DNA of 64,000 nucleotides from Fimbriimonadia bacterium (lineage in GTDB: Bacteria > Armatimonadota > Fimbriimonadia > Fimbriimonadales > JABRVX01), in assembly GCA_041483895.1 (NCBI GenBank), contig JBGPGO010000009.1:96001-160000 (forward strand), given 5' to 3'. This document shows positions 56,184 through 64,000 of this stretch, piece after piece. The notes under the pieces are model-generated. The model had not been told where the DNA came from and searched no databases. It worked only from the letters and a program-made list of their open reading frames with translations. Position numbers and translations under genes: made by a program. Positions within the stretch are counted from its first letter, which is position 1; the number at the start of each line of letters is the position of its first letter.

Positions 56184-57179
56184 CTAACTCTGGCCCATCT
56201 TCGCCGCGCTCACGTGTCCCGTGCGCATGAGAATCCACCGCACGATGACAAACAGCACCAGCATCATCCCGAAGGAGCTGACGAGAGATGGGCCGGTCGG
56301 ATAGTCGCGGGCGGCTGAGATATAGAGACCCATGACGCTGGCGGCGATGGCGATTCCCCATGCCAAGACGAGTTGCTTCATGAACCCCTTCATCACCATC
56401 GAGGCCGCCGCCGCGGGGATGATTAGGAAGCTAAACACGACCAGCACACCGGCCATGCGAACCGACTCCGTGACCATCAACGCGAACGTGAGATAGAACA
56501 AGAAATCCCACCCGATCACTTTCAGCCCGGTCGCCTCGGGATTGTGCGCGCTTTCCGAAATCTGCAGGAACTGACGACGGAACAGAAAGTGAATCACGCC
56601 AATGCCGAAATAGAGGAAAAATGTCCGAATGACATCCGATTGGTTCTGAAACAGAATATTCCCAACCAGCATCGCCTCGATCTCGTCTTTGCCATGCACG
56701 GATTTGCTCAGCACCATCACCGCAAGCGCCGCCGATACCACATAGAAGATACCGATGATGGCCTCATGTGGCACGCTGTCGTCGCGGAAACGGCTGACCC
56801 CGATGAGCGCCGCCCCGATCACCGCGAAGCCCAATGAGAAAATGTATACAAGTCGGTCCTGTTCCCGGTCATGTTCCGCCTGCTGCTGTTGCTCAACCTG
56901 CTCCGGAGTCATGCCTTTGGCCTGTGCGTGTTCCAGCGCCTCAACCTGCTGTGCGAAGTCGTCGCTAGTCACTGACGAGTGCACGTCGTGGATGAAATAG
57001 GGTGATGCCAGCAGCGCCACCGTCGCACCCAGCGCGGCCATCTGTGCCAGCGCCAGGTCCACAAAAATTACTCCGCGCCGCAAAACATGCATACCCATAT
57101 AGACATGCAACCCCGTCATCAAGAGACAGATAAAAAAGGGCCACATCAGCAAATGCCAGAGCTCTATCCAATCATGCAT
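56184..57179 (-). CDS. Metal (Zn/Mn) ABC transporter permease
   Basis: GMHVLRRGVIFVDLALAQMAALG, EAIIG, GVLVVFSFLIIPA and DYPTGP motifs. Confidence 0.9.
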   Translation of the reverse strand: MHDWIELWHLLMWPFFICLLMTGLHVYMGMHVLRRGVIFVDLALAQMAALGATVALLASPYFIHDVHSSVTSDDFAQQVEALEHAQAKGMTPEQVEQQQQAEHDREQDRLVYIFSLGFAVIGAALIGVSRFRDDSVPHEAIIGIFYVVSAALAVMVLSKSVHGKDEIEAMLVGNILFQNQSDVIRTFFLYFGIGVIHFLFRRQFLQISESAHNPEATGLKVIGWDFLFYLTFALMVTESVRMAGVLVVFSFLIIPAAAASMVMKGFMKQLVLAWGIAIAASVMGLYISAARDYPTGPSLVSSFGMMLVLFVIVRWILMRTGHVSAAKMGQS

Positions 57180-57206
57180 CTCTAAACCTCCGTGGCCCTT
57201 CGCATA

Positions 57207-58208
57207 TTATTTCGCCGCCTCGACCAGTTTGGTCACGACGTTGTCGATCATGGCAATGTAGTCCTTGGCGGCCGGCTGCCCGCCGACGGAGTTGGCCGCG
57301 AGCACGACGGTGCCATTCACTTTGCCCGCCACCAGATCGGCGGGTTTGCGGGAATAGAACGGTTCCATCAGGATGATCTTCGCGCCATCCTGTTTCATGA
57401 TTTTGATCACATCGAGCACATGGCCGGGACTTGGCTGGATTCCCGGCTTGGGCTCCAGCTCTTCGACGACATCGAATCCAAATCGCCGCGCGAAGTAGCT
57501 CCAGCTTCGGTGATAGGTGACGATTTTCGTGCCCTTCACCTTCTTCACCATCCCCAGCCATCCGCCGTACCGATGGTCGCCCTTTGCCAGCCACGCATCC
57601 AGATCGCCCGCGAAATAGTGGGACCACAGCTTGTCCCCACCTACTGCCGCCGCGCACACTTTGCCGAACATCGCTCCATCGAGGTCTTCGACAAACTTGC
57701 CATAGTTGGCTTCGTATGTGGACTTTCCGGCCGAGTCCAATCGGATCAGCCGGTCGCGGATCGCCTTCGCGATAATGCGGCCGTTGTACGGATCGGTCCA
57801 ATAGTGGGGATTGCCATACGGATGGATGTCTCCCATCGACCGGTCAACGGTCCCTGTCGGCACTTCAAGCTTCGATATGCCGATGGAGGCATCGAGGAAT
57901 CCCGGACCGCCCGGCAAGATGGCGGAATTTCGGGCCCCCTGCATCAGGGGCTGGGACCAGGCCTTCTCCAGCTCCATCCCAACCTCGATGAACAGGTCGG
58001 CATTGCGCATCTTGAGCATGTAGCTGGGTTTGGCCTCGATGAAATGGGGGTCCTCCAGGCCCGACGCGATGTTCGTGACGCTCACTCGGTTTCCGCCGAC
58101 CTGCCGCGCGATGTCGGCAAGATCGGGGATAGTTGTTACGACTTTTAGGCTGGCGAGCGCCGGGAGGCAAAGCGCTCCCAGCGCGGCTAGTACAAACATT
58201 TTTTTCAT
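57207..58208 (-). CDS. Metal (Zn/Mn) ABC transporter substrate-binding protein (ZnuA-like)
   Basis: EDPHF, GDIHPYGNPHYWTDP, YHRSWSYF and EPKPGIQPSPGH motifs. Confidence 0.92.
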   Translation of the reverse strand: MKKMFVLAALGALCLPALASLKVVTTIPDLADIARQVGGNRVSVTNIASGLEDPHFIEAKPSYMLKMRNADLFIEVGMELEKAWSQPLMQGARNSAILPGGPGFLDASIGISKLEVPTGTVDRSMGDIHPYGNPHYWTDPYNGRIIAKAIRDRLIRLDSAGKSTYEANYGKFVEDLDGAMFGKVCAAAVGGDKLWSHYFAGDLDAWLAKGDHRYGGWLGMVKKVKGTKIVTYHRSWSYFARRFGFDVVEELEPKPGIQPSPGHVLDVIKIMKQDGAKIILMEPFYSRKPADLVAGKVNGTVVLAANSVGGQPAAKDYIAMIDNVVTKLVEAAK

Positions 58209-58220
58209 AAGTATCCTCCC

Positions 58221-59621
58221 TTAGAATTTGTGCGCCGGATGGGCGCCGAAGCCGACTTCATATTGCAGCCAGATAGAATGCTGTGGCATGCCAAGGAAAT
58301 CGGACTGGTCGTAGTTGTATTGGAGCCGGATGCGGCTGAACTCGGATGGGTACCAGGTCAGCGCCGGCGACACCCGCCAGCGGCGCGCGCGAAGCGGGTC
58401 GGCGCTGTTGTCTCCGTTGGCATCGGCGTAGTCGAAGCGCAACCCGGCCACCCAGTTCCTTTGATAGCCGTAGTTGAATTCCGAGTACCAACCCCAGTCC
58501 TTTAGGTCCTGGCGTGACGTCGTGACGCCCCCTGCTTGGAAGGTGCGCGACATCGCCTCCGCTTGGATCGCCAGGAATGGGAAGCCGTGGTCGTTCACGC
58601 GGGGCTTCCACTTGTAGTAGAGGTCCGTCCCATACAGCTGCGTCCGGTTCGTTGGGCCGGTATTGTTGGGTCCAAAGGCGCTGGAGAACCCAAGGTTCAC
58701 CGTCTTTTCGTCGGAAAGCTCCCAGGAGTTGAACCAACGAGCGGTGTACAGCATGTCTCCGAGGGACCGGACCTGGCGATCGATGGTTGGGGTTCCCGCA
58801 GGTCCGTCCGATCCGAGGAAGCTGGCCGCCGTCCCTCCGCCGGCGTTTTGCGTTCCCAGAATAAACTCCGAATACCAATGGAACGGCGTGAGGTATGACA
58901 GTTGAACGCCGGGATTGCGCAGGCCGTCGCCGCCGAGCAGCCGACTGGTTATGACCGGCGCATCCACAAAGTTCCACGCATGGGGATGCCGAGCGTTGAG
59001 ACGCCCGAATTGGGTGAAGTATTGCCCGCTCTTGATCTCCATCGAGTTGGGCAGGCTGGTGGTGGTGAGGAAGGCCTCCTCCACCTCCGTCTCCGTCCCG
59101 CCATCGGGACCGAGTTTGAACACCGTGTGCATCTCGGCATTGAAGTAGGGATCGACGGCGCCGTTGAGCGAGAACTCCAGATTGCGGATGTTGAAGCCGC
59201 GATCTTTCGGATCGTGGTCGCCGCCCTGAAGCTGGCCCAGCAGTGTCTGGTCGGCAGTGGACCATCCCGCCGTAGTCAGGATGTCATAGGAGACATCGAT
59301 CAGCTTGAGCTGGCCCGGCGCGCCGGTCGCGGGAGCGCTGGGCTGCCCCTGCCCGCCGCCGAGCGCCTTCTCTAGTTCGGCCTTTAGGGCTTCGTCCTCC
59401 GGCGTCTCTTTCTTGCCGGCGGACAACTCGGCGATCGTGGCCTTCAGCGTGGCGATCTCTTCGGCGTGCTGCTTATTGGCGTCTTCAAGGTCGTTGATGC
59501 GCTTGATCAGCGCATCGATTTGATCCTGCTGTTTGTGATTGGGCTGGTTGTCTTGTCCCTGGGCGGTTGCACTCAGGCAGCCGAGACAGACGATAACAAA
59601 CCCGATAAGATACCTTTGCAA
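58221..59621 (-). CDS. Outer-membrane beta-barrel metal receptor/porin
   Basis: Signal peptide, coiled coil, GAVDPYF, FGRLN..HPHAW.FVD, PSEFSRIRLQY and terminal GAHPAHKF. Confidence 0.85.
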   Translation of the reverse strand: MQRYLIGFVIVCLGCLSATAQGQDNQPNHKQQDQIDALIKRINDLEDANKQHAEEIATLKATIAELSAGKKETPEDEALKAELEKALGGGQGQPSAPATGAPGQLKLIDVSYDILTTAGWSTADQTLLGQLQGGDHDPKDRGFNIRNLEFSLNGAVDPYFNAEMHTVFKLGPDGGTETEVEEAFLTTTSLPNSMEIKSGQYFTQFGRLNARHPHAWNFVDAPVITSRLLGGDGLRNPGVQLSYLTPFHWYSEFILGTQNAGGGTAASFLGSDGPAGTPTIDRQVRSLGDMLYTARWFNSWELSDEKTVNLGFSSAFGPNNTGPTNRTQLYGTDLYYKWKPRVNDHGFPFLAIQAEAMSRTFQAGGVTTSRQDLKDWGWYSEFNYGYQRNWVAGLRFDYADANGDNSADPLRARRWRVSPALTWYPSEFSRIRLQYNYDQSDFLGMPQHSIWLQYEVGFGAHPAHKF

Positions 59622-59648
59622 GTTATTTCCTCCTGTATCGTTGAATGT

Positions 59649-60026
59649 TTACGCGTCAACGAACAGGAGGGAAGGAGGGCCGCGAGCGCCGGTGACTGCA
59701 ACGGCGCAATTCGTAGGAGGGACCGACGCGTACGTCTCATGCCATGCGACCTTGGTTTCGGAGTGGCCCATGGCGGTATACGCGACAGTTGCGACGAAGC
59801 CGCTTAGCGAATGGCAGATCGGGCAGTTCGAGGAATCATGGGACTGCGTCGGGTGGTGATGGGTTGGCAGCTTGCAATCCGCGGCACACATACCGGCGAT
59901 CGGCGCATGCGCGCCGCTTGCCGGTTCTTCCGACAGGAGATGGAACGTCGGGGCAAAAAAGTAGATCCCGACGAACCAAACTGCCAATTTGGCGAAAATC
60001 GCCCGGTTGCGTAGCCTTCGCATCAT
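59649..60026 (-). CDS. DUF2946-like His/Cys-rich small protein
   Basis: TM/signal, HHH..HDSSNCPICH and terminal ARGPP; first gene of the metal-uptake operon. Confidence 0.7.
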   Translation of the reverse strand: MMRRLRNRAIFAKLAVWFVGIYFFAPTFHLLSEEPASGAHAPIAGMCAADCKLPTHHHPTQSHDSSNCPICHSLSGFVATVAYTAMGHSETKVAWHETYASVPPTNCAVAVTGARGPPSLLFVDA

Positions 60027-60080: not shown

Positions 60081-60103
60081 AAATGTGAATAGCTAACACA
60101 TTT
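60081..60103. promoter_or_regulatory. Palindromic operator candidate in the divergent promoter region
   Basis: AAATGTG-AATAGCTAA-CACATTT. Confidence 0.45.
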
Positions 60104-60256: not shown

Positions 60257-60604
60257 ATGAAAATCAAAGTAATGATCGTCGCGGGATTGGTCGCCATGGC
60301 GGTCGGGGGCACGGCCCTCACCGGTTTTATGAAGACGTTTCAGTCAACCTACGCGATCGCCAAGGACTCTCATCTTAGCAAGGAAAAGTGCATGACTTGC
60401 CACGACACGAAGCTTCCGACGAAGGCGAAGCATGTGCTGAATGCGTACGGTCTTGCCCTACAGAAGGAAATGAAGGCCGAAGGCACGAAGAAACTAAATG
60501 AGGACGTCTTGGAGAAGGTCGGCAAGCTGGATTCCGATGGCGATGGAATGAGAAACGCTGACGAAATTAAGAAGGACCGGTTGCCGGGCGACCCGAAGGG
60601 GTAG
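60257..60604 (+). CDS. Small secreted monoheme c-type cytochrome
   Basis: AAGGAG RBS, signal peptide, CMTCH, LNAYG and DSDGDG..N.DEI...LPGDP. Confidence 0.85.
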   Translation: MKIKVMIVAGLVAMAVGGTALTGFMKTFQSTYAIAKDSHLSKEKCMTCHDTKLPTKAKHVLNAYGLALQKEMKAEGTKKLNEDVLEKVGKLDSDGDGMRNADEIKKDRLPGDPKG

Positions 60605-60918
60605 TTGGCTCCGGATTTCGATTTGCAAAGGAATGCAGGACATGTTGATGTGGGTGTTGGCAGTCGTACAATTGTGGTTTGTCGAACGTTATGTGTCGAC
60701 CAAGAGGCTTTTGGGAAGTTTGAAGCCGGGCCGGCAGTCCAGTGGACTGGCGCCGGCTCCCAAGACCGATTCCAGACAGGGCCCATGCGACGCACGTAGA
60801 GCGCATGGGCTTCTTGTTGTCTGCCCCAAAACATTGGCCGGCAGCGTCCTCGGTCCGAGGAGAGTGATTTGCTATGGAGAGTAGCGGCAGCAGATCGGCT
60901 GCAAGGAGGCTAGGAAGG

Positions 60919-61989
60919 ATGTACCGAATGCAACGATCACGCGGAGCAGCATCGCAATTGGTCCTTTTCACAATCCCCTTGGTGGCATTGGTCGCGGTCG
61001 CATTGGCCCCGAGCATCCCGAACCAGGATCAGAAGAAGGACAAGCAAGGCGAGACAACCGTGGCAAAGGCGGCCCCGGTCGACAAGAAATTCTTGGAGCA
61101 GGACCACCCGGGTCCCGAGGCCACCAAGGTGGGAATGGAAGCCTGCGGAGACTGCCACGGCAAGCAGGTCGCAAAATTCTCCGCCTCGAAGCACGCCGTT
61201 TATCTGCGAAAAGTGGTGGCCGAAAAGGGTGAGGTATGCGAGTACTGCCACGGGCCCGCAAGCGAGCACGTCGATGAACGGGCTAATGTGAAGATCCTCC
61301 ACTTCCCGCAGCGATCCGCCTATACAGTCAAGCGAACAACAGAATTGTGCGTGAGTTGCCATACGGCCGTTTTGGACAAGCCCCATTGGCAAGGCAACAC
61401 GCACGCGATGGCCGACGTAAGCTGCGTCGACTGCCACAGCTTCCATCAGGACGACACGCAGCCCTATCTGTTGCGCAAGCCGGATATCAAGGTTACGAAC
61501 AACGTGGCCTTTCGCTACGACGAGAAGCATCCGACCACCAATCAGGCCATCAACGGCGCGTGCCTCAACTGCCACAGGGAGCAGCAATCGCAGCTGCGAA
61601 TGCGTTCCCACCATCCGCTGTTCGAAGATCGCGTCAATTGTGCCGATTGCCACGAGCCGCACAAGTCGACCGATCCAATGCTGCTTGCCGAGAACCGGGA
61701 TCTCTCGGAGACCTGTCTCAAGTGCCACACGAACAAGCGAGGCCCGTTTGTGTTCGAGCATGAGCCGGCTCGTGTCGGCGGGTTGGGTGATAGCTGCCTG
61801 ACCTGCCATCGCCCCCATGGCTCACCGAACCCAAAATTGACCGTTGCGTTCGGTCGCGGCCTGTGCATTCAGTGTCACACCGACATCAACCAAGATGCAG
61901 CACACCTCAATCGGCCAGGAAGCTGCTGGCGGTCGGGTTGCCACAGCGACATTCACGGCTCCAACACGAGCCCACTATTTTTCCACTGA
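60919..61989 (+). CDS. DmsE/MtrA/PioA-family decaheme cytochrome c
   Basis: Nine CxxCH plus terminal CWRSGCH..IHGSN; SHHP..E, KRGPFVFEHEP and PHGS motifs. Confidence 0.9.
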   Translation: MYRMQRSRGAASQLVLFTIPLVALVAVALAPSIPNQDQKKDKQGETTVAKAAPVDKKFLEQDHPGPEATKVGMEACGDCHGKQVAKFSASKHAVYLRKVVAEKGEVCEYCHGPASEHVDERANVKILHFPQRSAYTVKRTTELCVSCHTAVLDKPHWQGNTHAMADVSCVDCHSFHQDDTQPYLLRKPDIKVTNNVAFRYDEKHPTTNQAINGACLNCHREQQSQLRMRSHHPLFEDRVNCADCHEPHKSTDPMLLAENRDLSETCLKCHTNKRGPFVFEHEPARVGGLGDSCLTCHRPHGSPNPKLTVAFGRGLCIQCHTDINQDAAHLNRPGSCWRSGCHSDIHGSNTSPLFFH

Positions 61990-61996
61990 AAGGAGG

Positions 61997-63718
61997 ATGA
62001 AATTGCGAACAATTGGAACCAGCTTCGCGATCCTTCTCGCCTTCGGCATTCTGTCGGCCGGCGCCCAGGACGAGGCTCCGGTGATCAACCAGTTTGAATT
62101 CGATGCCGTGCCCGGTTGGAACAACCTCACCTTCCACGGCAATGAGAGCTTCCTTTTCCAGTACGGAACGATTCCGGATGACTTCTTTGGCGACATGGTT
62201 GCCGGAACTTTCCGAACCTTTGATACAAAGGAGTTGCTATTCACAGGGATGCTGCGAGATATCGGAGAACGATCCCAAGCGGGATACGGCAAGCTTGCGT
62301 TCGGTGGATCGGAGAGCTACATCCGGTTCTGGTCGGAACGATTTCAGTACTATTCGGATCCGACTCTAGGCGAAGTAATCGGCGCGGAGCAGAACTACCG
62401 GAAGGCAAAAGGGCATTTCTCGCTTGGAGAGCGCCTTCCCACCGTCGACCTGACGGCATCGGATCGGACAGTCTTCGAACCGGACATCGTGCGATTGCGC
62501 CCCGGCCCGCCGCAGGATTTTCGGAATTTCCAATATTCCGGCGAAGCAAACTACGCGGTATTCGGCGGGAAATTCCAATTTGGCCTCGGCAATTCTCGGT
62601 TCGAGGACAACACGGGGTATCAGCCGTCCGGAAATAGCCACAACGTGTCGTTCGGCACGACCCAATCCATCGGCGATCGGTTTAGCGCCAGCCTGAATAT
62701 GGCAAACGTATACACAGATCAGGACGGTCTGGGCGGGTCGACTTTGCGAAGCTGGGCCGGATCGGCCACCTGGCTTGTATTGCCGAAAGTTGTTTGGCGG
62801 GCAAGCGGCCAGATCAATCGAATCCATATCCCGTTCACGGTTTCGCGGTTCGCCAGCCATCGGGATGTGTTCAATACCGATGTCAACTGGCGTCCCATCC
62901 GGGAATTTGGGCTGCAGGCAGGCTACACACGGAGAAACCTGGAGCGGATTAAAGAGGGTAGCCAAGTCACCCAACGGCCGGCGATCAATGAAACCTTCGT
63001 CACGGCTCGGTATCGGCCTGGCGCCCTTGGTGACCTGATGGCGAGATATCGTACGACCCGTATCATCGACGCGCCGGAGGCCGATATCAGCGCTTTCGCA
63101 AATACCGCGACGCTCTACTATGACCAGGTGGATCGGTTCGACGCGCGATGGAGCAAGATGTTCTGGTACACGACGGATCTCCATGCGGGCTATCAGTGGT
63201 CCAAGAGGAGACACACCGAGAGGGATAGCGAGCTTCGGCTCCAGTCCTTCAATGCGGGCGTGTCATCGGAGTTGAGCCCGAACCTGAGCTTCCTCATCGA
63301 CTTTCTGTGGGAAGACTGGAGCGGCAACGGACCGGATTTTGACTCGACCGGCCTCAACACGGGTGACGACGGCAGCGTGACATCCGGCGCCGAAAACAGG
63401 TTGCTGTTCTCTCAAGGACAATCGGTTACCTTCGGCCTCAACTATCTGCTCAACAATCGAACATGGATCGACGGAACCGCGGTCGTGTACACCGGCCACG
63501 GTGGGGAGCGCGCCCGCAATACATTTGCCGCTATCGACCTGCGGCAAGAGTTCCTGAATGGATTGATCTTTGGAATCGGCTTCCAGAGACAGGTTTTTAC
63601 AGACGACTTTGTGGGAGGCAACGACTACGACAGCAATGTCTTCCGCATTACCCTTACTGCCAAGTTCAGTGTTCGAGAAGCCGGCAAAGGGGAAGGAGAA
63701 AATCATGGCGGCAAATAA
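61997..63718 (+). CDS. MtrB/PioB-like outer-membrane beta-barrel
   Basis: AGGAGG RBS, signal peptide, alternating aromatic beta strands throughout; directly downstream of the decaheme gene. Confidence 0.75.
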   Translation: MKLRTIGTSFAILLAFGILSAGAQDEAPVINQFEFDAVPGWNNLTFHGNESFLFQYGTIPDDFFGDMVAGTFRTFDTKELLFTGMLRDIGERSQAGYGKLAFGGSESYIRFWSERFQYYSDPTLGEVIGAEQNYRKAKGHFSLGERLPTVDLTASDRTVFEPDIVRLRPGPPQDFRNFQYSGEANYAVFGGKFQFGLGNSRFEDNTGYQPSGNSHNVSFGTTQSIGDRFSASLNMANVYTDQDGLGGSTLRSWAGSATWLVLPKVVWRASGQINRIHIPFTVSRFASHRDVFNTDVNWRPIREFGLQAGYTRRNLERIKEGSQVTQRPAINETFVTARYRPGALGDLMARYRTTRIIDAPEADISAFANTATLYYDQVDRFDARWSKMFWYTTDLHAGYQWSKRRHTERDSELRLQSFNAGVSSELSPNLSFLIDFLWEDWSGNGPDFDSTGLNTGDDGSVTSGAENRLLFSQGQSVTFGLNYLLNNRTWIDGTAVVYTGHGGERARNTFAAIDLRQEFLNGLIFGIGFQRQVFTDDFVGGNDYDSNVFRITLTAKFSVREAGKGEGENHGGK

Positions 63719-64000
63719 ATCACTTTGCTCAAAGAGGCTCACCATCGGGTACGGCGCCAGCGTCGCGGTCCTTGCCGCTGCACTTGTGGTGGGATGCAAG
63801 ACGGGAGATCTTGTGTCGGGCGGTGGCGACTTCGCACCGCCGGGCACGATTATCTTCAATGACCCATCGCCCATCCCCTCGGATAACACGCCTCCGACCG
63901 CGACAATGCTCGGCAGGGAAATCTGCCAGTCCTGCCACGGTCGATCGACCTCTGCGCATCCGAATGGGATCATCGCGGAATGGCTGACGACGCCACACGG
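63705..64000 (+). CDS. Lipoprotein c-type cytochrome (3' end lies outside the window)
   Basis: AAGGAG RBS; MAANKSLCSKRLTIGYGASVAVLAAALVVG-C...GREICQSCH...EWLTTPH; lipobox plus CxxCH; absent from the ORF track. Confidence 0.8.
   Translation, partial: MAANKSLCSKRLTIGYGASVAVLAAALVVGCKTGDLVSGGGDFAPPGTIIFNDPSPIPSDNTPPTATMLGREICQSCHGRSTSAHPNGIIAEWLTTPH

What the first reader, a model, noticed from the sequence alone, without database searches (positions are those of the whole stretch)
60257..64000. Porin-cytochrome (MtrAB-type) electron conduit with an unlisted lipoprotein cytochrome
Seen: monoheme cytochrome, then a decaheme (9 CxxCH plus atypical CX4CH), then a beta-barrel, then an overlapping ORF at 63705 with lipobox VVG-C and CQSCH running off the window. 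Known: MtrA/MtrB/MtrC, PioAB and DmsEF use this architecture for extracellular electron transfer. Inference: a complete conduit with a surface lipoprotein cytochrome that may not be an MtrC homologue, in a lineage (probably Armatimonadota) where I know of no characterised example. The barrel is short (~570 aa) and continues 16 aa past its apparent terminal strand (TLTAKF).
Basis: partly seen in the sequence, partly recalled or inferred. Interest (0 to 1): 0.8.

Follow-up and report, generated by a model that had tools for sequence, protein, structure and literature searches.

The report
Electron conduit with OcwA-type hexaheme cap
Four neighbouring genes encode a one-haem cytochrome, a ten-haem cytochrome, a protein predicted to fold as a 26-strand outer-membrane barrel and a six-haem protein with a lipoprotein signal that is related to the surface iron reductase OcwA of Gram-positive bacteria; together they likely form a wire that carries respiratory electrons across the outer membrane, with a different outer end from the textbook Shewanella wire.

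Summary
Observation confirmed. The decaheme passes the DmsE/MtrA family cut-off. The barrel has no MtrB HMM hit, yet it models as a plug-less 26-strand barrel whose best structural match is MtrB (Z 24.9, next 16.4). Read past the window edge, the 63705 ORF is a complete 399-aa, six-haem lipoprotein. It is not MtrC. Its family matches OcwA and OmhA best, then NrfA-type proteins, and it looks like OcwA minus three central haems.

Of 401 genomes of the phylum, 69 hold both cytochromes; in 59 the OcwA-like gene lies 1.7-4.6 kb downstream of the decaheme. Natural decaheme-barrel and monoheme-barrel fusions exist.

Surface location, docking and direction of flow are inferred, not shown; 9 of 32 relatives show no lipobox. 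Kato 2022 noted MtoAB-like genes in one Armatimonadota MAG; my ten searches found no paper on the OcwA-type partner. This scan has reported the same arrangement on other DNA five times. Verdict: new variant of a known kind.

The parts
60081..60103 (.). Palindrome with perfect 7-bp arms and a 9-bp spacer, between the operon and the divergent metal-uptake genes; candidate regulator site
   Evidence: The only such site in the genome at 0 or 1 mismatch; function not tested
60257..60604 (+). Small monoheme c-type cytochrome (115 aa, signal-peptide-like N-terminus, CMTCH, DSDGDG-type acidic motif); likely periplasmic electron shuttle
   Evidence: NF041762 GEGP diheme domain, E 5e-12, far below cut-off. 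A homologue is fused to the barrel N-terminus in L034. No His or Met is conserved as distal ligand in 10 aligned homologues
60919..61989 (+). MtrA/DmsE-family decaheme cytochrome (356 aa; nine CxxCH and a terminal CX4CH)
   Evidence: TIGR03508 196 bits vs cut-off 192.2; chain A of the Mtr complex 6R2Q, E 1.6e-33; ten conserved non-motif His
61997..63718 (+). MtrB-like outer-membrane barrel (573 aa), predicted 26 strands and no plug; 16-residue tail after the terminal Phe557
   Evidence: AlphaFold2 pLDDT 88.5; Foldseek best hit 6r2q_B, E 4.9e-14, TM 0.72; Z 24.9, rmsd 3.8, 501 aligned; no PF11854 or TIGR03509 hit for this protein
63705..64000 (+). 5' part of a 399-aa hexaheme lipoprotein of the OcwA/OmhA/NrfA superfamily; it runs on to window-equivalent 64904 (G000:C9:159705-160904)
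   Evidence: family profile vs PDB: OcwA 6I5B E 5e-25, OmhA 6QVM E 1.2e-13; model vs PDB: OcwA Z 11.7, rmsd 3.0, 156 aligned, C-terminal half only

Best explanation
The four genes encode a monoheme cytochrome, an MtrA-family decaheme, a predicted MtrB-like 26-strand barrel and an OcwA-related hexaheme lipoprotein, which likely assemble into a porin-cytochrome conduit that would pass respiratory electrons outward across the outer membrane. Steps: (1) a quinol dehydrogenase encoded elsewhere in the genome would load a periplasmic carrier, probably the monoheme (inferred); (2) the decaheme would sit inside the barrel, haem 1 in the periplasm and the CX4CH haem 10 at the outer face (inferred from MtrAB and from natural fusions); (3) the hexaheme would sit on the outer face in the MtrC position, take electrons from haem 10 and pass them to an extracellular acceptor such as Fe(III)/Mn oxide, humics, an electrode or a partner cell (inferred from gene position and OcwA kinship). 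Its haem 2 may keep an open coordination site. My odds: MtrAB-type conduit about 0.9; hexaheme on the outer face about 0.7; mainly outward flow about 0.7 given a conduit.
For: Decaheme over the TIGR03508 cut-off. Barrel model: 26 strands, no plug, a short helix between strands 1 and 2, short strands 3-4; MtrB has 26 strands, that capping helix and short first strands (PMC7198977 section 10). MtrB is the best structural match by a wide margin. Loops assigned to the outer face have net charge -13, and are negative in 40 of 43 aligned barrels, as reported for MtrB-family barrels that dock outer partners. Two full-length proteins fuse ten haem motifs to this barrel type (P0125, P0154) and two fragments show the same join (P0147, P0188). 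The monoheme is fused to the barrel in L034. Of 401 genomes: 69 with both cytochromes, 21 decaheme only, 7 OcwA-like only, 304 neither; 59 of the 69 have the OcwA-like gene downstream on the same strand. The two best solved relatives of the lipoprotein family are cell-surface iron reductases (PMC6703420, PMC9250108 passages). The genome holds a NapC/NirT-type and a cytochrome b-multiheme gene pair, CcmF, Omp85, Lgt and three secretins; RuBisCO was not found (genome 95% complete).
Against: No experiment exists. The barrel itself has no MtrB family hit, and only 3 of 43 relatives have weak ones (best E 0.0015). A lipobox does not show surface exposure. 9 of 32 aligned relatives show no lipobox (two look N-terminally cut), including L023, which still lies directly behind a barrel. 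LolA was not found with PF03548, and I did not show that any secretin belongs to a type II secretion system. The OcwA superfamily also holds periplasmic enzymes (NrfA, ONR, MccA), which come next in the hit lists. The third gene is dispensable or exchangeable: 21 of 90 decaheme genomes gave no OcwA-like match, this genome's second decaheme-barrel pair has none, and a paralogue in relatives has an EB_dh-domain lipoprotein there. The lipoprotein model is mediocre (pLDDT 64; Foldseek gave nothing at E <= 0.001). A small in-operon monoheme also recalls the oxidative MtoABD layout (PMC10654088 passages). The genomes counted are kin, so the co-occurrence is not a set of independent events.
Confidence: 0.6

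Rival explanations
1. The decaheme and barrel form the conduit as in MtoAB/PioAB, but the hexaheme faces the periplasm. It would act there as a membrane-tethered relay, or as a nitrite/hydroxylamine-handling enzyme wired to the conduit.
For: No lipobox seen in 9 of 32 relatives. NrfA, ONR and MccA follow OcwA and OmhA in the hit lists. Haem 2 aligns with open-site haems of OcwA, c554 and NrfA. LolA not found. OcwA itself reduces nitrite slowly (PMC6703420 passages). In L013 the operon lies between two genes that look like nitrate/nitrite transporters (label by eye and recall).
Against: No CxxCK in any of 32 aligned members. The best matches are the two surface proteins, not the enzymes. The operon already holds a candidate periplasmic carrier, the monoheme. 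The outer loops of the barrel are negative, as in barrels that dock outer partners.
Confidence: 0.2
2. Same three-part conduit with a surface cap, but used mainly inward: the cell takes electrons from Fe(II), reduced humics or partner cells and feeds them through the monoheme to oxygen or nitrate respiration.
For: Mtr complexes conduct both ways (PMC7198977 passages). A small in-operon monoheme parallels MtoD. The genome has a haem-copper oxidase. Kato 2022 placed an Armatimonadota MtoA nearer PioA/MtoA than MtrA (PMC9671151 section 21).
Against: Described oxidative MtoAB/PioAB systems have no outer multiheme partner, and MtrA-family trees do not sort by direction (PMC8805035 passages). OcwA and OmhA are reductases. 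RuBisCO was not found, though this does not exclude mixotrophy.
Confidence: 0.13
3. No electron transfer across the membrane: the barrel is a transporter or scaffold (for example for metal uptake or export) and the cytochromes work in the periplasm.
For: The operon is flanked by ZnuA/ZnuB-type uptake genes and an AcrB/HlyD efflux pair. The language-model neighbours of the barrel are mostly unnamed barrels.
Against: Those flanking genes were not seen beside the relatives' operons that I read. The barrel has no plug, matches MtrB far better than TonB-dependent or LptD barrels, and is naturally fused to the decaheme.
Confidence: 0.05

Closest known systems
MtrCAB of Shewanella (PDB 6R2Q; PMC7198977, abstract, passages and sections 10-11 read)
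   Same: MtrA-family decaheme, a 26-strand plug-less barrel with a helix in loop 1 and negative outer loops, and a third multiheme lipoprotein in one operon.
   Different: The third subunit is a hexaheme of the OcwA/NrfA superfamily, not a four-domain MtrC decaheme. The barrel is 532 residues without signal and tail, against 649 modelled in MtrB, 11% identical and missed by the MtrB HMMs. Haem 10 has a CX4CH motif. Gene order is A-B-cap with a monoheme in front.
MtoAB(D) of Sideroxydans, PioAB(C) of Rhodopseudomonas, DmsEF of Shewanella (PMC10654088 and PMC8805035, passages read)
   Same: Same decaheme-barrel core; a small periplasmic carrier gene in the operon, as with MtoD or PioC.
   Different: MtoAB and PioAB have no outer multiheme partner and DmsEF uses a molybdoenzyme. 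The monoheme here is of another family (weak NF041762 match, no conserved His or Met distal ligand).
OcwA of Thermincola potens (6I5B) and OmhA of Carboxydothermus ferrireducens (6QVM) (PMC6703420 and PMC9250108, passages read)
   Same: c554-like N-terminal haem module, NrfA-like last two haems and a C-terminal three-helix bundle with the G-x-H motif; no CxxCK.
   Different: Six haems instead of nine or eleven. Haems 1-4 align with OcwA haems 1-4 and haems 5-6 with OcwA haems 8-9. There is no His-His pair, and a His replaces the Met ahead of the last haem pair. It is encoded with a porin-cytochrome core in a diderm, whereas OcwA and OmhA come from Gram-positive cells.
Geobacter Pcc conduits (OmbB-OmaB-OmcB) and the GSU2203/GSU2204 families
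   Same: Porin, periplasmic cytochrome and outer lipoprotein cytochrome in one operon. Weak matches to NF041028 and NF041027; an 'OmcB family' cluster appears among the language-model neighbours at 0.91.
   Different: All matches are far below the family cut-offs; the core here is MtrA/MtrB-like. That OmcB ends in a similar helix bundle is my recollection and was not tested; if true it is a precedent for this kind of cap on a conduit.

Membership tests
MtrA/DmsE decaheme (TIGR03508) | Score above the curated cut-off | tested here: met
   196 vs 192.2 bits
MtrA/DmsE decaheme (TIGR03508) | Ten haem motifs with ten distal His | tested here: met
   Nine CxxCH plus one CX4CH; ten conserved non-motif His in 42 rows. 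Haem attachment at the CX4CH is inferred
MtrB/PioB barrel (PF11854, TIGR03509) | Sequence match to the family HMM | tested here: not met
   No hit for P0003; 3 of 43 relatives hit weakly, best E 0.0015 and 0.0031
MtrB/PioB barrel (PF11854, TIGR03509) | 26-strand plug-less barrel of MtrB fold | tested here: met
   Predicted model with 26 strands; MtrB best match, Z 24.9, rmsd 3.8, 501 aligned
MtrB/PioB barrel (PF11854, TIGR03509) | Encoded directly after a DmsE-type decaheme | tested here: met
   7-nt gap here; a barrel follows the decaheme in 32 of 33 Armatimonadota-titled loci, the other is cut by a contig end
MtrB/PioB barrel (PF11854, TIGR03509) | Decaheme held in the barrel lumen | not tested
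   Not co-folded as a scored pair; indirect support from natural fusions
MtrC/OmcA | Ten haems in a four-domain protein | tested here: not met
   Six CxxCH in 399 aa; no TIGR03507 hit for P0004 at E 0.01. The PF22113 hit (33.1 bits) covers only a haem-motif stretch
OcwA/OmhA clade | c554-like N-terminal module plus NrfA-like C-terminal module with three-helix bundle | tested here: met
   Profile alignments; three long C-terminal helices at pLDDT 85-97; Z 11.7 to 6I5B over the C-terminal half
OcwA/OmhA clade | Nine or eleven haems, two five-coordinate haems under His-His motifs | tested here: not met
   Six haems and no HH pair in P0004; one conserved His (H230) aligns with the second HH of OcwA
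OcwA/OmhA clade | Cell-surface location and Fe(III) oxide reduction | not testable with these tools
   Needs fractionation and assay
NrfA/ONR nitrite reductases | CxxCK catalytic haem | tested here: not met
   0 of 32 aligned members carry CxxCK. NrfA variants without the lysine exist (PMC9250108 passages), so this lowers rather than removes the case
Porin-cytochrome conduit (works-like claim) | [quoted passage not shown] | not testable with these tools
   Needs proteoliposome or mutant assay

The most novel reading that the evidence does not exclude
A distinct class of porin-cytochrome conduit, spread through Armatimonadota, in which an OcwA-type cytochrome replaces MtrC as the outer terminal. 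The hexaheme here is a pruned OcwA whose haem 2 keeps an open, histidine-lined site, so that the cap does chemistry on soluble substrates as well as passing electrons to solids. The third slot is an exchangeable adapter (octa-, hexa- or nonaheme OcwA-type, or an EB_dh-domain lipoprotein). Armatimonadota are diderm Terrabacteria, so this would link the surface reductases of Gram-positive metal reducers to outer-membrane conduits and add extracellular respiration to a phylum known for sugar degradation, at loci that MtrB and MtrC HMM screens miss.
Probability: 0.3. Interest if true: 0.75.

Novelty: new variant of a known kind. Interest (0 to 1): 0.5.

Why it matters
The decaheme was found in 90 of 401 sampled genomes of the phylum and the OcwA-like partner in 76. 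The window's barrel is invisible to the MtrB HMMs and the partner is not MtrC, so screens that need MtrCAB would miss these loci. If they work as predicted, a sizeable share of Armatimonadota could exchange electrons with minerals, humics or partner cells. The 369-residue mature hexaheme is a small natural test case for how multiheme cytochromes lose modules and for what an MtrAB core needs from its outer partner. The core mechanism is known, the function here is untested, and this scan has already noted the arrangement in other genomes, which caps the surprise.

Tried and rejected
Complex prediction of barrel + C-terminal half of the decaheme + hexaheme (partner): no answer, score 0.00 in two runs, controls not folded; not evidence either way.

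Sequence searches of the barrel against Pfam and the PDB found nothing useful; MtrB was reached only by fold. Profile comparison with one longer Acidobacteriota protein (L087) gave probability 3%.

Foldseek on the hexaheme model gave no match at E <= 0.001, although OcwA ranked first. No MtrC chain was listed; absence from fold lists is inconclusive.

No RNA holder listed.

Promoter and terminator scan: 4 vs 2.3 +/- 1.5 and 6 vs 5.6 +/- 2.1 in shuffles; nothing concluded. CRP, FNR and Rex consensus patterns (recalled) have no exact match upstream.

Frameshift or assembly error behind the 16-residue tail: rejected. H156 as a haem ligand: rejected, missing in 5 of 20 hexahemes.

The decaheme tree is only a quick tree: 73 rows; nine decahemes were dropped by my filter (L045, L059, L065, L074, L079, L083, L091, L095, L096); the Armatimonadota group has SH-aLRT 86, and long branches meet. 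No donor or order of events is claimed. No tree with OcwA, MtrA, MtoA or PioA was possible because no tool gave me those sequences.

Literature: ten searches of open-access full text; no supplements were read, and those of PMC9671151 and PMC8805035 could list such loci.
Full report
Observation. The genome continues 12.9 kb past the window. The last ORF is complete: 399 aa, lipobox VVG-C31, six CxxCH (C74, C124, C165, C195, C261, C289), no CxxCK. An AcrB/HlyD pair follows on the other strand, so the unit has four genes and no catalytic subunit behind it. Signal peptides were judged by eye; no predictor was run.

Decaheme. It scores 196 bits against TIGR03508, cut-off 192.2, and matches chain A of the Mtr complex at E 1.6e-33. 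In 42 aligned relatives, ten histidines outside the motifs are invariant or nearly so, one for each haem if the CX4CH binds one. Among the 80 loci, CX4CH is present in 30 of 33 that I counted as Armatimonadota from their titles, 0 of 40 titled otherwise and 4 of 7 without a lineage in the title. In MtrA, haem 10 is the one presented to the outer partner (PMC7198977 section 11). The motif is not required for the partner: L033, L034, L083 and L091 have CxxCH and still carry one.

Barrel. It has no PF11854 or TIGR03509 hit, and 3 of 43 relatives hit weakly. With a 43-row alignment, AlphaFold2 gave pLDDT 88.5, 26 strands, no plug and a short helix between strands 1 and 2. MtrB has the same strand count and helix. 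MtrB is the top Foldseek hit (E 4.9e-14, TM 0.72, next 1.6e-8) and the top VIA hit (Z 24.9, rmsd 3.8, 501 aligned, next 16.4). Loops assigned to the outer face, assuming a periplasmic N-terminus, carry net charge -13 and are negative in 40 of 43 rows. The family has 215 representatives at E <= 0.001. Of the 150 listed, 125 are over 480 aa, with median 551, and 102 of these end in F. The 16-residue tail is real but local, and would lie in the periplasm; I read it as a recent stop-codon shift of no evident importance (GC3 0.31 over 16 codons against 0.68 for the gene).

Fusions. P0125 (1054 aa) and P0154 (988 aa) carry ten haem motifs followed in frame by this barrel type; fragments P0147 and P0188 show the same join. 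In L034 a homologue of the monoheme is fused by a Pro/Ala linker to the barrel N-terminus. These tie three of the four genes to one machine. No cap-barrel fusion was seen among those 150.

The lipoprotein. The single protein hits OmhA (E 3e-4) and, weakly, OcwA. Family profiles give OcwA first (E 1e-22 and 5e-25), OmhA second, then NrfA-type proteins and cytochrome c554. The model is poor in its N-terminal half (mean pLDDT 64). Its C-terminal half matches OcwA at Z 11.7 (rmsd 3.0, 156 aligned), then OmhA 8.8, MccA 8.6, ONR 8.4; this region is helical, so the Z alone would not be decisive. In the alignments, haems 1-4 pair with OcwA haems 1-4, and haems 5-6 with the helix bundle pair with OcwA haems 8-9. 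The simplest reading is an OcwA-type chain that lost three central haems, the 'pruning' described for this superfamily (PMC9250108 passages). Haem 2 falls on an open-site haem in both registers (OcwA and c554 haem 2; the NrfA CxxCK haem). H230 aligns with the His-His pair that lies over OcwA haem 5. Six non-motif histidines are widely kept in 20 hexahemes: H98, H175, H230, H254 and H380 at 90% or more, H277 in most rows. That count fits either six bis-His haems or five plus an open haem 2; I could not measure the geometry. The ligand assignments rest partly on recalled NrfA and c554 structures.

Distribution. In 401 genomes drawn from the phylum, the decaheme profile matched 90 and the lipoprotein profile 76. 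69 hold both, 21 the decaheme only, 7 the lipoprotein only, 304 neither. Of the 69, 59 have the lipoprotein 1.7-4.6 kb downstream on the same strand, 8 have the two on different contigs and 2 have it upstream. Of 33 Armatimonadota-titled loci, 32 have the barrel and 22 the OcwA-like gene; 7 are cut short; L021, L070 and L096 lack it in about 5 kb of downstream DNA, and L019 has another lipoprotein there. None of the 40 other-titled loci had it downstream. The genome set and the locus set may overlap and all are kin, so these are descriptions, not tests. Most relatives are octahemes; the hexaheme is the minority form. The closest named homologues come from a Fimbriimonadales MAG (58% decaheme; 56% lipoprotein). 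The five runs holding half or more of the region's words are sediment metagenomes, four of which I laid.

Results against the reading. No lipobox was seen in 9 of 32 aligned relatives. LolA was not found. Three secretins exist, in clusters that look like type IV pilus or type II secretion genes by eye, unassigned. This genome's second decaheme-barrel pair (C18:1689-4174) has no third cytochrome. In two genomes of the same family a paralogous pair is followed by an EB_dh-domain lipoprotein. An oxidase is present, so inward flow is possible.

Supporting context. The genome holds a NapC/NirT-type pentaheme facing a seven-haem cytochrome b fusion (C3:61279-64338); similar genes sit next to the operon in L014 and L033. 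CcmF, Omp85 and Lgt are present, and a CcmF-like gene follows the operon in L013, L014 and L028 (label by eye).

What is known. PMC7198977 (abstract, passages, sections 10-11): MtrCAB structure. PMC6703420 and PMC9250108 (passages): OcwA, OmhA and the superfamily. PMC8805035 (passages): calls MtrAB a modular core; 'Armatimonad' does not occur in its main text. PMC9671151 (passages, section 21): MtoAB-like genes in one Armatimonadota MAG and predicted iron cycling, no third subunit described in what I read. PMC13055281 (passages): iron-reduction genes in one Fimbriimonadales MAG. PMC11535203 (passages): Armatimonadota include a cultured diderm placed in Terrabacteria, with no anaerobic growth seen in enrichment. 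PMC12133095, PMC11492766, PMC10654088 and PMC6137239 (passages): no description of this arrangement in what I read. Other papers were seen only as search listings. Ten searches found no paper pairing an OcwA-type cytochrome with MtrAB; subscription journals and supplements were not covered. Five earlier notes of this scan describe the same arrangement on other DNA, in Armatimonadota, an acidobacterium and a Zixibacteria-like genome. I saw them after reaching this reading (note), and they are not independent support.

Verdict. It works most likely as an MtrCAB-like conduit. The decaheme is a family member; the barrel is MtrB-like by fold but not by HMM; the third subunit is neither MtrC nor a full OcwA. 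New variant of a known kind, interest 0.5. This window adds the pruned hexaheme form, and the session adds the fusion evidence and the exchangeable third slot.

Noticed in passing
G000:C18:1689-4174 (L015:1689-4174): A second decaheme (nine CxxCH + CX4CH) and a 528-aa barrel-like gene in the same genome, with no third cytochrome; about 34% identical to the window's decaheme.
   Followed up: partly
L011:10491-11918 and L012:5055-6311: In two genomes of the same family, a paralogous decaheme-barrel pair is followed by a lipoprotein with an ethylbenzene-dehydrogenase haem domain (PF09459, 103 bits for L011) and one CxxCH plus CX3-4CH motifs.
   Followed up: partly
P0125, P0154, P0147, P0188: Natural decaheme-barrel fusion proteins; the two full-length ones have CX4CH at both haem 1 and haem 10. 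Genomic context not available.
   Followed up: partly
L034:4008-6122: Monoheme cytochrome fused through a Pro/Ala linker to a 26-strand-type barrel, superficially like Cyc2 but next to a decaheme and an octaheme lipoprotein.
   Followed up: partly
window 60257-60604; G000:C3:147938-148267; L013:14474-15274; L067:7285-8103: The monoheme family keeps CxxCH, N-x-(Y/F)-G and an acidic D-x-D-x-x-G motif but no His or Met distal ligand. Two members have a C-terminal membrane extension (DUF2231 in L013). A paralogue lies alone on C3.
   Followed up: partly
L026:7981-8732, L029:7849-8566, L030:7981-9506, L031:1882-3360, L032:1162-1878, L049:1854-3397: Fervidibacter-type loci carry one or two similar units of about 700-770 bp between decaheme and barrel, and other inserts before the lipoprotein. 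No frame of 140 aa or more was open on the minus strand; unexplained. An extra pentaheme precedes the decaheme in these loci.
   Followed up: partly
L037:8227-9339, L042 and L046:9710-10822: A second, different octaheme lipoprotein sits between the barrel and the OcwA-like gene.
   Followed up: no
window 56184-60026 (minus strand): Divergent metal-uptake unit: small Cys/His-rich protein (weak DUF2946), an outer-membrane porin-like gene, ZnuA and ABC-3 permease. Not seen beside relatives' conduit genes.
   Followed up: partly
window 60081-60103: Palindrome with 7-bp arms, CRP-like arms but a 9-bp spacer, unique in the genome.
   Followed up: partly
L048:1656-9699: Tandem duplication of decaheme + barrel, with a monoheme gene between the copies and one lipoprotein after the second.
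   Followed up: no
G000:C11:83051-86137 and G000:C15:33029-34519: Further multihemes in the genome: a 1028-codon frame with eight CxxCH, and a nonaheme next to a cytochrome b-like gene.
   Followed up: no
L065:6875-10126: A 1083-aa Acidobacteriota ORF with ten haem motifs and a barrel-like end, another possible decaheme-barrel fusion.
   Followed up: no
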